Shown: one piece after another, positions 1 to 4,409 of the stretch | Layout of the letters: each line of letters begins with the position of its first letter | Numbering within the stretch: position 1 is the first letter of the stretch | IMG/VR virus record: IMGVR_UViG_2529292717_000009 | DNA length: 4,409 bases | From: a virus | Taxonomy: Duplodnaviria; Heunggongvirae; Uroviricota; Caudoviricetes | Strand: one strand, 5' to 3' | Made by a program: the position numbers and the translations under genes | Notes under the pieces: model-generated | Database searches by the model: none | The model's input: only the letters and a program-made list of their open reading frames with translations | Told to the model about the DNA's origin: nothing

Positions 1-350
1 CCTGCGATGCCCTGCAGATGGCGCTGTGGCGGCGTAAGAGGCCCCGGAACGTTATCGTTCACACGGACCGTGGAGGCCAGTACTGTTCAGCAGATTATCA
101 GGCGCAACTGAAGCGGCATAATCTGCGTGGAAGTATGAGCGCAAAAGGTTGCTGCTACGATAATGCCTGCGTGGAAAGCTTCTTTCATTCGCTGAAAGTG
201 GAATGTATCCATGGAGAACACTTTATCAGCCGGGAAATAATGCGGGCAACGGTGTTTAATTATATCGAATGTGATTACAATCGGTGGCGGCGGCACAGTT
301 GGTGTGGCGGCCTCAGTCCGGAACAATTTGAAAACCAGAACCTCGCTTAG
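1..350 (+). CDS. insF: IS3 transposase OrfB (InsF-type, DDE integrase core), C-terminal fragment; 5' end beyond the window edge
   Basis: The frame is open from nt 3 ([29 protein letters not shown]...), so the annotated ATG at 18 is internal. It contains the second catalytic Asp context (HTDRGGQY) and the catalytic Glu context ([14 protein letters not shown]) typical of IS3-family DDE transposases. Stop TAG at 348-350. Confidence 0.9.
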
Positions 351-380
351 GCCTGTGTCCATATTACGTGGGTAGGATCA
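342..380. repeat. IS3 right terminal inverted repeat (IRR), about 39 bp, overlapping the 3' end of orfB
   Basis: Terminal sequence ...GGCCTGTGTCCATATTACGTGGGTAGGATCA ends at 380 with CA. It matches the remembered IS3 IR when reverse-complemented. The exact inner limit of the IR is approximate. Confidence 0.7.
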
Positions 381-467
381 TGGAAAAGGCAAGTGTTATT
401 GCAAAACTGCAATCTCTCGGCTTTGTAATTGCTGGTTATGAAGAACTTGCGATCCCTACGACTTAAC

Positions 468-472
468 AAGGA
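468..472 (+). promoter_or_regulatory. Shine-Dalgarno (AAGGA) for the 343-aa ORF
   Basis: AAGGA at 468-472, 8 nt upstream of ATG 481. The in-frame upstream stop TGA at 439-441 prevents any longer N-terminal extension. Confidence 0.6.
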
Positions 473-480
473 AAATAATA

Positions 481-1512
481 ATGAATGATTTATCAACATA
501 TTTTGGCGTTAATACTGCGGTAGTAACTCCATTTGCTTATGAGAATGCACTTAATACCCTGATTACTAATCTCGATCTGTTCGATGTGCAATATCATACA
601 GAAAACAGCATTCTTCTTACCGACCTGATTGATCAGTTTGTGCAGGTAGCTGGGGAAACCTCGCCTTACGCTCAAAGCGACTGGAACGCCTCTAAACGTC
701 AGGAATGGTCAAACAAACTTTTCCAGATGAAACACGTCGGCAGTATTAACGCTGTTACTTCTCGTGACCTGGAACAATACAGCCGCCAATATCCAAACCG
801 TTCTGATGCTATGCTGGTAGCGGTTAATGATTTCTCTGAGGCTCATTACCGTTCACACGCAAACCGTGTTGAAGTGGATCTGATTACCGCGCTGCTGGGC
901 CTGAAAGTTGAATCTGAATATGCCGGACAAGGTGATCTCGACTTCCTCGACGGTCAGGCTAAAACCACGGTACCCGCTATCGACTTTGCATCGACTACTG
1001 TTAACCCGTTCCTTGCTATTCGTAAAGCGGTGCGCTTACAGAGTGAAAAGCTGGGGTCTGGTCTTGCTGCAAAGCGAACTGGTGTAATTATCTTTGCTGC
1101 TGGCACTGCTGCTGATGGTTTGTCATCTAACCCGCTGATCAGTGACATGGTGAAATATGCAGGCGATGCGAGTGCTACGGCCCTGTTTACCCGTATGGTT
1201 GATTCTAACCCAGCCTATGACTCTTTCCAGATTGGTGGGATCACTGTTATTGATGTGTCAATGTTTCCTGAGATTGTTGCTCACATCGGAGAGAACGGTT
1301 TCGCAATTGTTCCGGTAATGGATAAAGCGGCACAGTGTTACCAGCTTCACACAGGCGTTGGTGTGCGTCATGCTGAGTTAGGTCAAGATGCCGTGTTACA
1401 TCACCAATATCTAATCAAGGATGAATTCCAATTCCCATCTGTGGTTACTGAGACATCTTATCTGCCAGTAAACAACATTCCGCAAGCTATCATCTTCGGA
1501 TCTGCTGCGTAA
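481..1512 (+). CDS. hypothetical protein, 343 aa; function unknown (soluble, Ala/Thr/Val/Asp-rich; no Walker A or other catalytic motif seen)
   Basis: Long uninterrupted ORF with ATG start and good SD; stop TAA at 1510-1512 followed by a second TAA. No membrane-spanning segment is evident. Size and composition are compatible with a structural protein (capsid-like), but this is conjecture. Confidence 0.8.
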   Translation: MNDLSTYFGVNTAVVTPFAYENALNTLITNLDLFDVQYHTENSILLTDLIDQFVQVAGETSPYAQSDWNASKRQEWSNKLFQMKHVGSINAVTSRDLEQYSRQYPNRSDAMLVAVNDFSEAHYRSHANRVEVDLITALLGLKVESEYAGQGDLDFLDGQAKTTVPAIDFASTTVNPFLAIRKAVRLQSEKLGSGLAAKRTGVIIFAAGTAADGLSSNPLISDMVKYAGDASATALFTRMVDSNPAYDSFQIGGITVIDVSMFPEIVAHIGENGFAIVPVMDKAAQCYQLHTGVGVRHAELGQDAVLHHQYLIKDEFQFPSVVTETSYLPVNNIPQAIIFGSAA

Positions 1513-1653
1513 TAAAGCATTAATAGACGATTCCCCATAGGGGCAATAAGGGTAAGGGATAATCATATAAGCAAAATATGCGCTGTCTCTTGCCCTTTTT
1601 GTTTTTCTACTGTCTACAAACCCAAATAAAAATATATATGTGAGAGAAAACCA

Positions 1654-1851
1654 ATGAATACAGAAAACCCACAATCCTTTATTCTTAAGGCTGTAAAAGA
1701 ACTGGCAGCTATTAGCGAGGAATCAGTTATAAACACATCGGCGCTTTGCCGCCTTTTAGAAATTGATGCAAATAATGTGCGCCAGCGTGTCTTTCAGACT
1801 GGGTGCAGCACTTTCGAAGCAATTCAATACTATTGCTCTAAAAAACAATAA
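1654..1851 (+). CDS. small hypothetical protein, 65 aa; possible helix-turn-helix DNA-binding protein
   Basis: ATG at 1654 preceded by a weak SD (GAGAG at 1642-1646). The segment TSALCRLLEIDANNVRQRV has the hydrophobic/polar pattern of an HTH recognition unit. The short length keeps confidence moderate. Confidence 0.5.
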   Translation: MNTENPQSFILKAVKELAAISEESVINTSALCRLLEIDANNVRQRVFQTGCSTFEAIQYYCSKKQ

Positions 1852-1870
1852 TAAACAACAATCATAATAC

Positions 1871-1875
1871 AGGGA
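1871..1875 (+). promoter_or_regulatory. Shine-Dalgarno (AGGGA) for the 614-aa ORF
   Basis: AGGGA at 1871-1875, 10 nt upstream of ATG 1886. Only 34 nt separate it from the upstream 65-aa ORF, suggesting co-transcription. Confidence 0.55.
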
Positions 1876-1885
1876 AACAATTAGC

Positions 1886-3730
1886 ATGTTAGAACTTAAC
1901 GTCAGCCGCTTATCAAACGTTGTCACCTTCCAGGTTGATCGACCATCATTAGAGAAAGCAAAAGCAGAAGTAGAAAAACTTCGTAAACAAATGGCGGCTG
2001 TGAAAGATATAGAATTGCGTATTAAGACACATAAACAATCAACCGCTAAAGCAAAAAAAGACGTAGACGATATTGCTAAAAAGCAAGCACAGGCTGATAA
2101 AGCTAATGCTAAAGCACAATTAGCCGCTCAACGTGTAGTTGCAAGAGAACAAAAAGCCCTGGCAGCACGCAAAGAGAAGGCAGAATTAAAGCTTTTAGAC
2201 GTTGGATCAAGCATTAGTGCAATGCACCGTCTTTCTGTAGCGGAACAATATAAAGCTATTGCACAGGCTAGAGAAATTGCCCTCCAATATGAAAGAGGCG
2301 CTATTAGTCTGGCACGTATGAATAGCCAAATGAAACGCCTACAACAGCAACAACGTAAGATTAATGGCAATCGTAACGCTCACGCTAAAGCCTATGCACC
2401 TGTTAAGGGTAGCGGGAGTATTGGCGGCGGTGCTGCGGCTGTTATGCTGGGTGGCTTAGGCGCTGGCGCTACGTATATGGCTATGAGTAAAGCCTCTGAA
2501 TTTGTTACTAACAGCTTTGCGAATGCTGAAACAGAAGGAGAATTAATCCAACGTGCAAGGCTTGGTGGAGTTGATTACAACTTACTTAATAATCTTGAGC
2601 GTTGGGCATATGACAACGGGATCGATAGCCTCCAGGGTGATCAGGGACGCAGAAAAATACTAGATGCCATCGGTAAAGATGTAAAGGAACGCGCTACCAA
2701 AAGCTATGACGAGGCTGAATATGTAGTTGATAAGAAAACTGGTAAAGGAGAATGGAAGGGCGGCGATAGCGGCATCAATACTTTAATGAATGAAGGATTC
2801 TTAACTAAAAAGGATCTAAAAGACTTTGCTGATAATCCGGCTGGTCTGGTTAGTAAAGCAGTTCAGGGAATGGTAGCTAAAGGCTATTCAGATGCACAAA
2901 TCGGTAGTCGTCTGGAAGATCTGGCTGATGATTTGATGCTCACCTCTAAATACTGGACACGCTCCGCTAAAGAAGTGGAACAATCAGCACGAGAACAACG
3001 AGAATCAGGGCGCTGGGTAACACAGGCACAACAGGAAAGCGTTATTAAATTCCGTGAACTGAATAATGCACTTAGTGGGCTTTCTGACTCACAAGGGATC
3101 GCCTTTGTTGATGGCTTTATGAAATCTCTTGATCCGAAAGTGATTGAAGAGTTTAAAAAGAGCATGGTTGCAATGCTGCCAATGTTTACCAAATTAGGCG
3201 AGGCTGTAGGCGGTCTACTTAATGCGATCATGAAAACTATCAACTGGTTGATGAAAAACGACGAGAAGACGGCAGCTATTCAGAAGAATTTAGGGGATGC
3301 ACCGCCACTATCTAACGAAGGAATGAAGCAGAATCTTTCTAATCTCACTCCTGATCAATATAAAGGCGCTGGCACCGGAACAATTAAGCCAGATAACAGC
3401 AATTCCCTGGTTAACACTATTAAAAGCTGGTTTATGCCAGAAGAAACGGTAGGTGGGGCGCAGGCTGTAAATCAATACAGTCTCGAAGGACAAAACATTG
3501 CAAATCTGAAACAGAGTGCAGCACAACAAGCTTTCAAGGCTCCTTCTTACACCTTTGCACCTGTTATTAACTTCAATCCAGAATTACAAGTAAATGCAGA
3601 AGTGCCGCTAACTATCGAATCAGACACCGGACGATTGAGCGAATTTATCGACTTCAAATCAAAGGCATCCTCCGCTGAGTTTAGCAAGCTATTAACGCTG
3701 GGTGTTATGTCAGGCGGGTCAACCTATTAA
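1886..3730 (+). CDS. hypothetical protein, 614 aa: N-terminal Lys/Ala/Gln-rich coiled-coil-like region, single Gly/Ala-rich hydrophobic segment, large C-terminal domain; function unknown
   Basis: Longest ORF in the window, with ATG start and SD. Residues about 20-165 are low-complexity and charged (AKAKKDVDDIAKKQAQADKANAKAQLAAQRVVAREQKALAARKEKAELK). Residues 175-200 (GSGSIGGGAAAVMLGGLGAGATYMAM, nt 2408-2485) are Gly/Ala-rich and hydrophobic, transmembrane-like. Stop TAA at 3728-3730. Confidence 0.85.
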   Translation: MLELNVSRLSNVVTFQVDRPSLEKAKAEVEKLRKQMAAVKDIELRIKTHKQSTAKAKKDVDDIAKKQAQADKANAKAQLAAQRVVAREQKALAARKEKAELKLLDVGSSISAMHRLSVAEQYKAIAQAREIALQYERGAISLARMNSQMKRLQQQQRKINGNRNAHAKAYAPVKGSGSIGGGAAAVMLGGLGAGATYMAMSKASEFVTNSFANAETEGELIQRARLGGVDYNLLNNLERWAYDNGIDSLQGDQGRRKILDAIGKDVKERATKSYDEAEYVVDKKTGKGEWKGGDSGINTLMNEGFLTKKDLKDFADNPAGLVSKAVQGMVAKGYSDAQIGSRLEDLADDLMLTSKYWTRSAKEVEQSAREQRESGRWVTQAQQESVIKFRELNNALSGLSDSQGIAFVDGFMKSLDPKVIEEFKKSMVAMLPMFTKLGEAVGGLLNAIMKTINWLMKNDEKTAAIQKNLGDAPPLSNEGMKQNLSNLTPDQYKGAGTGTIKPDNSNSLVNTIKSWFMPEETVGGAQAVNQYSLEGQNIANLKQSAAQQAFKAPSYTFAPVINFNPELQVNAEVPLTIESDTGRLSEFIDFKSKASSAEFSKLLTLGVMSGGSTY

Positions 3731-3763
3731 TCATCGCTGTGGGGCTGTTTAGCCCCCTTAAAT

Positions 3764-3768
3764 AAGGA
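3764..3768 (+). promoter_or_regulatory. Shine-Dalgarno (AAGGA) for the 87-aa ORF
   Basis: AAGGA at 3764-3768, 9 nt upstream of ATG 3778. Confidence 0.5.
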
Positions 3769-3777
3769 TTACAAATT

Positions 3778-4409
<632 letters not shown>

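What the first reader, a model, noticed from the sequence alone, without database searches (positions are those of the whole stretch)
1654..1851. 65-aa ORF with helix-turn-helix-like segment immediately upstream of the 614-aa gene
A short protein whose central segment (SVINTSALCRLLEIDANNVRQRV) fits an HTH pattern, positioned 34 nt upstream of the large gene. This arrangement is typical of a small regulator or antitoxin-like partner controlling a potentially toxic downstream effector.
Basis: inference. Interest (0 to 1): 0.4.

Follow-up and report, generated by a model that had tools for sequence, protein, structure and literature searches.

The report
Small HTH gene before tape-measure gene
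The 65-codon ORF is a real, conserved gene for a small helix-turn-helix protein that always sits just upstream of a phage tape-measure-like gene in a family of integrated phage-satellite-like islands of enterobacteria; it is not an antitoxin guarding a toxin.

Summary
The ORF is at 1654-1851 (65 aa), 34 nt upstream of the 614-aa gene, as described. It is a real gene. PGAP annotates it, dN/dS is 0.04-0.26, and a homologous 60-69 aa ORF holds the same position in every related island examined, from at least five enterobacterial genera. AlphaFold gives a confident four-helix model (pLDDT 87) with helix 28-34, a turn, and helix 39-49. Residues 27-65 match, profile to profile (98%, E 1e-13 to 1e-14), repeat modules that pass Pfam's I-HmuI NUMOD-like HTH model. 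Foldseek and direct Pfam searches find nothing significant. The neighbour is not a toxin. It is homologous to the tape-measure protein gp134 of phage phi92, and a gp135 homologue follows it. A lambda-E/HK97-type capsid gene lies upstream. All of this sits in a ~13-kb island with an integrase and att repeats at tRNA-Thr. The upstream spacer holds a conserved intrinsic terminator, not an operator or a promoter. In six of the eleven non-redundant lineages the ORF's stop overlaps the tape-measure start. Best reading: a small DNA-binding protein co-expressed with the tail genes of a satellite-like element. Its target is unknown.

The parts
1654..1851 (+). 65-aa ORF (stop included), a small four-helix protein and member of an unnamed enterobacterial family
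1732..1848 (+). Residues 27-65, the region homologous to NUMOD-like HTH repeat modules. The HTH core (helix 28-34, turn, helix 39-49) is nt 1735-1800.
   Evidence: AF2 secondary structure; hhalign 98.2% / 98.1%; the repeat proteins pass PF22083
1642..1646 (+). GAGAG Shine-Dalgarno-like motif 7 nt before the ATG. A GAGA/GGAG motif is found at the same place in other lineages.
   Evidence: sequence; spacers listed
1840..1845 (+). A6 tract three codons before the stop. Its length is polymorphic. The A5 form changes the tail from SKKQ to SKNNNKQQS (70 aa) and is the variant seen on the most contigs.
   Evidence: P0001, P0011; sequence
1539..1606 (+). Long hairpin followed by TTTTTGTTTTT (1596-1606), an intrinsic terminator after the capsid gene and directly upstream of the ORF
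   Evidence: z -5.5; an equivalent hairpin plus T-run folds in the six other lineages tested
481..1512 (+). 343-aa major-capsid-like gene (lambda gpE / HK97 fold)
   Evidence: phrog_29 5.8e-5; homologues carry PF03864; Foldseek to HK97-fold capsids E 1.5e-9, from a low-confidence model
1886..3730 (+). 614-aa tape-measure-like gene, homologue of phi92 gp134
3778..4041 (+). 5' part of a 225-aa Dit-like / phi92 gp135-like gene, cut off by an IS21-family element
   Evidence: PF21821; 50% identity to phi92 gp135; full-length copy in L001
363..466 (+). 3' end of a 127-aa gene (possibly head decoration), truncated by IS3
   Evidence: only weak phrog_2680 support
1..362 (+). Right end of an IS3-family element (transposase rve domain)
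4042..4409 (-). End of an IS21-family element (IstB on the minus strand, 4092-4385)

Best explanation
The ORF encodes a small stand-alone helix-turn-helix protein. Its C-terminal 39 residues form one NUMOD-like module, the kind of minimal DNA-binding unit found in homing endonucleases such as I-HmuI. It belongs to the late, morphogenetic gene block of a ~13-kb integrative, phage-satellite-like island (integrase, replication-initiator-like gene, capsid gene, tape-measure-like gene, gp135-like gene). It is transcribed by read-through of the terminator that follows the capsid gene. It is translated together with the tape-measure-like gene, often by stop/start overlap. I infer that it binds DNA and tunes transcription. 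The target could be the island's own late genes or genes of the phage that mobilises the island, in the way P4 delta sits inside the sid-delta-psu operon or PLE CapR represses ICP1 capsid genes. Shown: it is a real gene under purifying selection, with fixed synteny, a helical HTH-type model, homology to NUMOD-like modules, a conserved upstream terminator, no promoter motif of its own, and phage-tail neighbours. Inferred: DNA binding, a regulatory role, the target, and the satellite nature of the island.
For: Gene reality. Synteny in all 13 further related islands retrieved (L003-L005, L009-L020), from at least five genera. AF2 pLDDT 87 with H28-34, a turn, then H39-49. A profile search of 1.84 billion representatives finds repeat proteins whose units match residues 27-65. 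These proteins pass Pfam PF22083 I-HmuI_NUMOD-like (42 bits against a cutoff of 27) and also touch NUMOD1, HTH_29, HTH_28 and Sigma70_r4_2. One of them (P0026) fuses the repeats to sigma-70 region 2, where region 4 would normally sit. hhalign of the ORF family against 25 repeat units gives 98.2% (E 3e-14) and 98.1% (E 8e-14). The control against phi92 gp133 gives 0.1%. Most sub-threshold Pfam hits of the ten family members (11 of 16 families, including the three matched by more than one member) are HTH families. The second-ranked PDB profile hit and the best single-stretch match is the HTH of an IS21-family transposase (E 0.18); the nominal top hit is a four-repeat summation artefact. V42 R43 Q44 R45 in the second helix are invariant within E. 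coli, and VRQR recurs in Enterobacter and Citrobacter. Terminator and missing promoter. Stop/start overlap with the tape-measure gene in six of the eleven non-redundant lineages.
Against: The ORF itself hits no Pfam, NCBIfam or PHROG family. Foldseek finds no significant structural neighbour in PDB or BFVD (best E 1.8 and 0.41). The link to NUMOD-like modules goes through repeat proteins of unknown function, whose library E-values are inflated by summing 5-8 weak units of 12-25 bits each. The hhalign result is the independent support. The family is near neutral (pI 6.1-7.9), which is unusual for a small DNA-binding protein. No conserved non-coding motif that could be its binding site was found across island lineages. 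Tight translational coupling to a structural gene fits an assembly partner as well as a regulator.
Confidence: 0.5

Rival explanations
1. It is a protein-binding assembly factor or chaperone for the tape-measure-like protein. It would use a small helical bundle that only resembles an HTH, and would fill the slot that tail-assembly chaperones (lambda G/GT, phi92 gp132/gp133) occupy just upstream of tape-measure genes.
For: It lies immediately upstream of the tape-measure-like gene in every lineage, and the two genes overlap in six of the eleven non-redundant lineages. phi92 has a 75-aa gene, gp133, in the same position. The pI is near neutral. No binding-site motif was found.
Against: It has no similarity to phi92 gp133 (hhalign 0.1%) or to any tail-chaperone PHROG or Pfam family. 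There is no frameshift extension: slipping on the A6 tract adds only a few codons (sequence; P0001). It has positive homology to HTH modules. The ORF stays 83-85% identical where the tape-measure protein is replaced by one only 27% identical (L003, L005), which is not expected of a co-evolving chaperone.
Confidence: 0.2
2. It is a packaging-specificity factor: a minimal small-terminase-like or Rpp-like DNA-recognition protein that marks island DNA for a helper phage's terminase.
For: The island has capsid and tail genes but no terminase or portal. Small terminases use N-terminal HTH domains. There are weak, non-significant hits to the P22 gp3 packaging family and to small-terminase models.
Against: At 65 aa it has no room for the oligomerisation and TerL-binding parts of a small terminase. 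There is no significant similarity to any terminase family. Its place is between the head and tail genes, not at the start of a packaging module.
Confidence: 0.1
3. It is an excisionase or recombination directionality factor for the island's tyrosine integrase.
For: The size (60-69 aa) and an HTH are typical of Xis/AlpA/Vis-type factors. No other excisionase was recognised in the island. There are weak HTH_17 hits in 2 of 10 members.
Against: It is separated from the integrase gene by the 1.8-kb tape-measure gene. It lies in the late structural block behind a terminator and is translationally coupled to a structural gene. It is not basic. HTH_17 scores are far below threshold.
Confidence: 0.05
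4. One reading: an HTH antitoxin or autorepressor controlling a toxic 614-aa effector.
For: A small HTH gene sits directly upstream of, and is co-expressed with, a larger gene.
Against: The downstream protein is a tape-measure homologue followed by a baseplate-type gene in phage order. There are no toxin or defence-model hits. There is no promoter or operator in the spacer, only a terminator.
Confidence: 0.03
5. It is a decaying remnant of a homing-endonuclease DNA-binding domain, or a spurious ORF, with no function.
For: NUMOD-type modules come from homing endonucleases, which insert between conserved phage structural genes. The family has no annotation.
Against: There is purifying selection. 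Length and position are conserved across genera at 18-45% identity. There are at least 221 clusters; the 120 listed are nearly all full-length stand-alone proteins. There is no nuclease-bearing relative in the phage collection.
Confidence: 0.02

Closest known systems
NUMOD-like HTH modules of homing endonucleases (Pfam PF22083 I-HmuI_NUMOD-like; NUMOD1 PF07453)
   Same: It shares a ~40-residue helix-turn-helix unit with the pattern L-C-x-x-L-x-I-x(4)-V-R-x-R ... G-C-S-x-x-E-A-I-x-Y. Profile-profile match to modules that pass PF22083 is 98%.
   Different: It is stand-alone, with one module and no nuclease domain. The ORF itself does not reach any Pfam threshold. Its N-terminal 26 residues are modelled as a helix, in the place where the repeat units carry the F-x-Y-x-G-x-x-Y segment.
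CapR of the Vibrio cholerae satellite PLE (PMC8096241)
   Same: Both are satellite-encoded DNA-binding proteins related to a homing-endonuclease DNA-binding domain. CapR is used to tune phage structural-gene transcription. This is an analogy of logic.
   Different: No sequence relationship was tested or found. The paper relates CapR to a domain of ICP1-encoded homing endonucleases. DNA binding and a target are shown for CapR and are unknown here.
P4 delta in the sid-delta-psu late operon (own knowledge of P2/P4 biology)
   Same: A small transcription factor is embedded between morphogenetic genes of a satellite's late operon.
   Different: Delta and Ogr are zinc-finger activators that work through RNA polymerase, not HTH proteins. 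There is no homology.
Tail assembly chaperones upstream of tape-measure genes (lambda G/GT; phi92 gp132/gp133)
   Same: It holds the same genomic slot directly before the tape-measure gene.
   Different: There is no sequence similarity, no programmed frameshift, and the predicted fold class is different.
HTH antitoxins of type II toxin-antitoxin pairs
   Same: A small HTH protein is encoded just upstream of its partner.
   Different: The partner is a 614-aa phage tail protein homologue. There is no autoregulated promoter or operator.

Membership tests
HTH DNA-binding domain, NUMOD-like type (PF22083 / PF07453) | Direct match of the protein to the family model at the curated threshold | tested here: not met
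   0 Pfam families at E<=1 for the ORF. The ten family members give only sub-threshold HTH hits.
HTH DNA-binding domain, NUMOD-like type (PF22083 / PF07453) | Homology to bona fide members through profile comparison | tested here: met
   hhalign gives 98.2% (E 3e-14) and 98.1% (E 8e-14) to units of repeat proteins that pass PF22083 at 42 bits against a cutoff of 27. Negative control 0.1%.
HTH DNA-binding domain, NUMOD-like type (PF22083 / PF07453) | Two helices joined by a tight turn, packed on a third helix | tested here: inconclusive
   The AF2 model (pLDDT 87) has H6-20, H28-34, H39-49 and H53-64. Foldseek has no significant neighbour; the top non-significant hits are mostly HTH regulators.
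HTH DNA-binding domain, NUMOD-like type (PF22083 / PF07453) | Binds DNA | not testable with these tools
   Needs EMSA or DAP-seq. Near-neutral pI and the lack of a conserved candidate site are mild negatives.
Type II toxin-antitoxin pair | Downstream gene encodes a toxin domain | tested here: not met
   The downstream gene is a tape-measure homologue. No PADLOC or toxin Pfam hits.
Type II toxin-antitoxin pair | Own promoter with an operator (inverted repeat) upstream of the antitoxin | tested here: not met
   No plus-strand sigma-70-like site lies upstream of the ORF; the only plus-strand site is at 1920-1949, inside the tape-measure gene. The only strong inverted repeat is the terminator hairpin. 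Other genera have about 15-20 nt between the T-run and the ATG.
Tail assembly chaperone (G/GT type) | Gene immediately upstream of the tape-measure gene | tested here: met
   True in all lineages.
Tail assembly chaperone (G/GT type) | Sequence or profile similarity to chaperone families | tested here: not met
   No PHROG or Pfam hit. hhalign to phi92 gp133 gives 0.1%.
Tail assembly chaperone (G/GT type) | Programmed -1 frameshift giving a long C-terminal extension | tested here: not met
   The sequence shows that the alternative frames after the A6 tract close within 7-15 codons. The natural A5 variant adds only NNNKQQS.
Excisionase (Xis/AlpA/Vis) | Match to HTH_17/AlpA-type models and placement next to the integrase gene | tested here: not met
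   HTH_17 reaches E 0.074 at best, in 2 of 10 members. At least 1.8 kb, with the tape-measure gene in between, separates the ORF from the integrase gene.
Phage satellite (island level) | Integrase and flanking att repeats at a tRNA gene | tested here: met
   Tyrosine integrase. A 21-bp repeat of the tRNA-Thr 3' end lies at L001 7584 and 20588. Other copies lie at tRNA-Gly and elsewhere.
Phage satellite (island level) | Only a partial set of virion genes, related to those of a candidate helper | tested here: inconclusive
   Capsid, tape-measure and gp135-like genes are present. No portal, terminase, sheath or tube was recognised among the annotated ORFs. The tail genes are related to phi92/rV5-like phages. 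About 3 kb of the island is unannotated.
Phage satellite (island level) | Helper-dependent induction and transfer | not testable with these tools
   Needs infection experiments.

The most novel reading that the evidence does not exclude
The ORF could be the DNA-binding control or recognition factor of a so far undescribed family of ~10-13 kb tRNA-integrated satellites of Enterobacteriaceae. These islands carry their own lambda-E-type capsid gene plus homologues of the tape-measure and gp135 baseplate genes of large lytic phi92/rV5-like myoviruses. The protein would act on helper-phage DNA, repressing or redirecting late genes or packaging, and would link head and tail hijacking.
Probability: 0.15. 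Interest if true: 0.7.

Novelty: new member of a known kind. Interest (0 to 1): 0.33.

Why it matters
Taken alone this is a new, unannotated family of small HTH proteins, which is an ordinary kind of thing. The context gives it some value. It is an invariant fixture between the head and tail genes of a widespread enterobacterial island family that looks like a phage satellite. That family borrows tail genes from phi92/rV5-like lytic phages, and I found no description of it in the literature searched. If the protein binds DNA, finding its target would be a direct way to learn which phage the island exploits and how. It also gives Pfam-less 'hypothetical proteins' in hundreds of E. coli and Klebsiella genomes a testable annotation.

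Tried and rejected
- Direct family searches of the ORF (Pfam, PHROGs, NCBIfam, PADLOC) found nothing.
- Foldseek of the AF2 model against PDB and BFVD gave no significant match.
- tblastn of the ORF against 50,697 phage records gave only two chance-level hits.
- PDB sequence-profile searches gave only sub-threshold HTH hits, plus repeat-summation artefacts with designed repeat proteins and an antifreeze tandem.
- The library hits P0019, P0025 and P0027 were rejected as junk tandem-repeat translations.
- A k-mer screen for a non-coding motif shared by eight island lineages found only coding or SD-linked words.
- Rfam found nothing in the window, and only the tRNA in the island.
- Homology to the positional analogue phi92 gp133 is absent.
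- Paralogy with the other small ORF at the head of the operon is weak (hhalign 32%) and left open.
- A frameshift G/GT-type product was rejected from the reading frames.
- Four literature searches for the island family found no description.

Full report
**Observation.**
The window is E. coli DNA, 100% identical over 3.7 kb to strain ETEC-2264. ATG is at 1654 and TAA at 1849-1851, giving 65 codons. It ends 34 nt before the 614-aa ORF at 1886. The quoted segment is residues 24-46. PGAP annotates the ORF as a hypothetical protein (WP_001387927).

**Is it a gene?**
Yes.
- Its DNA occurs in 278 of 5426 complete E. coli genomes.
- E. coli variants differ by up to dS about 0.9, yet dN/dS is 0.04-0.26.
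- Capsid-gene homologues at 42-57% identity led to islands in Klebsiella pneumoniae, K. oxytoca, Cronobacter, Enterobacter, Citrobacter and a second E. coli type. Each has a 60-66 aa ORF between the capsid gene and a 605-627 aa gene.
- These small ORFs align with the window's ORF at 18-42% identity.
- A profile of ten of them retrieves at least 221 clusters at 90% identity from 5.8 billion proteins. The 120 listed are 62-88 aa stand-alone proteins (nearly all 62-71 aa). Every named source organism is enterobacterial, and where a name is given it is 'hypothetical'. Their contexts repeat the same layout.
- An A6 tract at 1840-1845 is length-polymorphic. The A5 form, with tail SKNNNKQQS and 70 aa, is the variant seen on the most contigs. 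The last few residues are therefore dispensable.

**Fold.**
- AlphaFold2 on a shallow alignment gives pLDDT 87 and pTM 0.70. The helices are 6-20, 28-34, 39-49 and 53-64, so residues 28-49 form a helix-turn-helix.
- Foldseek finds no significant neighbour. The best PDB hit has E 1.8 and the best BFVD hit E 0.41. The non-significant top of the PDB list is mostly HTH regulators such as Rex, Ada, TetR and MntR.
- The ORF hits no Pfam, PHROG or NCBIfam model directly.

**Link to NUMOD-like modules.**
- An exhaustive HMMER search of 1.84 billion representatives found a distant 71-aa E. coli homologue, P0021. It also found proteins made of 2-9 tandem ~55-aa units with the pattern F-x-Y-x-G-x-x-Y-x-S-L-x-x-C-C-x-x-L-G-I-x(3)-S-V-R-x-R-x(4)-C-S-x-E-E-A-I-x-H-F. 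The named members of one cluster are from Blautia obeum. These units match ORF residues 27-65.
- Each unit scores only 12-25 bits, so the library E-values are inflated by summing repeats. Three other hits are junk repeats.
- The independent test is profile against profile. The ORF family against 25 extracted units gives hhalign 98.2% (E 3e-14). With the more diverse ten-member family it gives 98.1% (E 8e-14), over 39 columns. A control against phi92 gp133 gives 0.1%.
- The repeat proteins pass Pfam PF22083 (I-HmuI NUMOD-like) and touch NUMOD1, HTH_29, HTH_28 and Sigma70_r4_2. One carries the units after sigma-70 region 2, where region 4 would normally sit.
- Most sub-threshold Pfam hits of the family members are HTH families. 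The best single-stretch PDB sequence match is the HTH of an IS21-family transposase, at E 0.18.
- I rate 'HTH-type module' at about 0.8. DNA binding is not shown. The family's pI of 6.1-7.9 is a mild argument against it.

**Surroundings.**
- The 614-aa protein matches phrog_16051, tail length tape measure (2.4e-29).
- It matches the tape-measure proteins of Stephanstirmvirinae phages (phiWec188 full length, E 2e-37; phi92 gp134). It also matches PDB chain 21vq_V, Phi92_gp134 (1.2e-18).
- The next gene, cut by an IS21-family element in the window, is 50% identical to phi92 gp135. In phi92, gp135 directly follows gp134.
- The 343-aa upstream protein is a lambda-gpE-type capsid protein. Its homologues carry PF03864. 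A low-confidence model still finds HK97-fold capsids at E 1.5e-9.
- In intact copies these genes lie in a 13-kb element. It is bounded by a 21-bp repeat of the tRNA-Thr 3' end and has a tyrosine integrase and a replication-initiator-like HTH protein. Other copies sit at tRNA-Gly and elsewhere.
- No portal, terminase, sheath or tube gene was recognised.
- No known defence system matches.
- This is the profile of a phage satellite. I found no description of it. Its mobility is untested.

**Expression signals.**
- The spacer 1513-1653 folds into a long hairpin (1539-1606, z -5.5) that ends in TTTTTGTTTTT.
- An equivalent hairpin plus T-run, with different stem sequences, follows the capsid gene in the six other lineages folded. 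The K. oxytoca spacer (L014), which was not folded, shows no obvious T-run.
- Outside E. coli only about 15-20 nt, holding a GGAG/GAGA motif, separate the T-run from the start codon.
- There is no sigma-70-like site on the coding strand upstream of the ORF and no other inverted repeat of note.
- So the ORF is expressed by read-through from the capsid transcript, not from an autoregulated promoter.
- Its stop overlaps the tape-measure start (TAATG, or an 8-nt overlap) in six of the eleven non-redundant lineages. The gap is 4 nt in one more, 18-34 nt in E. coli, and 115 nt with a hairpin in K. oxytoca.

**Modular behaviour.**
Compared with the window, L003 has capsid 99%, ORF 83% and tape measure 27% identity. 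L005 has capsid 20%, ORF 85% and tape measure 27%. L011 has capsid 57%, ORF 42% and tape measure 85%. The ORF is kept whichever head or tail module flanks it, and it does not co-vary closely with the tape measure.

**Interpretation.**
The 'antitoxin or regulator of a toxic effector with an operator upstream' is not. My best explanation, at 0.5, is a small DNA-binding HTH protein made together with the tail proteins, acting on island or helper-phage transcription. Two precedents in logic are P4 delta inside sid-delta-psu (own knowledge) and PLE CapR, a homing-endonuclease-derived repressor of ICP1 capsid genes (PMC8096241).

The main rival, at 0.2, is a protein-binding assembly partner of the tape-measure protein. 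The position, the coupling and the neutral charge favour it. The HTH homology, the lack of similarity to chaperones and the lack of co-variation with the tape measure count against it. Lesser rivals are a packaging-specificity factor (0.1), an excisionase (0.05), an antitoxin (0.03), and a functionless remnant (0.02).

**Novelty and score.**
This is a new, unannotated family within a very well-known fold class, in an interesting and apparently undescribed island family. Interest for the finding itself is 0.33. The island context is the part worth following.

Noticed in passing
window 363-4041; intact copy L001 7584-20608 (NZ_CP051222): The whole window lies in a ~13-kb integrative island at tRNA-Thr, flanked by a 21-bp att repeat. 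It carries an integrase, a replication-initiator-like gene, a lambda-E-type capsid gene, and homologues of phi92 gp134 (tape measure) and gp135 (50% identity). No portal, terminase, sheath or tube gene was recognised. Related islands occur in E. coli, Klebsiella, Enterobacter, Citrobacter and Cronobacter at several tRNA sites. It looks like an undescribed phage-satellite family, possibly exploiting phi92/rV5-like lytic phages. No paper describing it was found.
   Followed up: partly
window 1539-1606; L009 11057-11114, L012 7084-7140, L016 7060-7120: The terminator hairpin after the capsid gene is unusually long (~55-65 nt). In Klebsiella, Cronobacter and L016 its apical stem-loop keeps the same sequence (GAGCGCAAAUCUC) while the lower stem differs. 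E. coli copies have GGCGCAAAU or AAGCAAAAU in the loop. It may be more than a terminator, for example a protein-binding or antitermination site. There is no Rfam match.
   Followed up: partly
window 1840-1845: The A6 homopolymer near the ORF's 3' end varies in length between strains. This switches the C-terminal tail between SKKQ (65 aa) and SKNNNKQQS (70 aa, the variant seen on the most contigs).
   Followed up: yes
L001 14503-14700 (WP_000807036), and the equivalent 64-80 aa ORFs in all lineages: A second conserved small ORF heads the decoration-capsid gene pair. Its segment 'IKVAALLGVTPESLRS' looks like an HTH and aligns weakly with the studied ORF family (hhalign 32%, E 5e-4). It may be a distant paralogue, so that one small HTH gene precedes the head genes and one precedes the tail genes.
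   Followed up: partly
L001 13518-14503 and 9517-11584; similar 0.5-1 kb gaps in L009, L012, L013, L015, L016, L019: Every island lineage has a conserved-position non-coding gap of 0.5-1 kb just upstream of the morphogenetic genes. In L001 a 10/12 sigma-70-like promoter lies at its start (13531-13560). A further ~2 kb near the tRNA side is unannotated. These could hold an origin, a pac/cos site or a non-coding RNA. Rfam finds nothing.
   Followed up: partly
window 1-362 and 4042-4409: An IS3-family element truncates the 127-aa gene upstream of the capsid gene. An IS21-family element (IstB on the minus strand) truncates the gp135-like gene. This copy of the island is therefore degraded. The closest complete genome (ETEC-2264) has the IS3 insertion but an intact gp135-like gene.
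   Followed up: yes
P0018, P0023, P0024, P0026, P0028 (Blautia obeum and gut metagenomes): These are uncharacterised proteins made of 2-9 tandem NUMOD-like HTH units with an invariant CC pair. One of them is fused to sigma-70 region 2 in place of region 4. This is an unusual multi-HTH architecture with no assigned function.
   Followed up: partly
window 1513-1653 compared with L003 9114-9266: There is a sharp recombination boundary. Between the window and L003 the capsid gene has dS 0.025, but the small ORF has dS 0.65 and the tape-measure protein is only 27% identical. Head and tail modules of these islands are exchanged around the terminator and small-ORF junction.
   Followed up: partly
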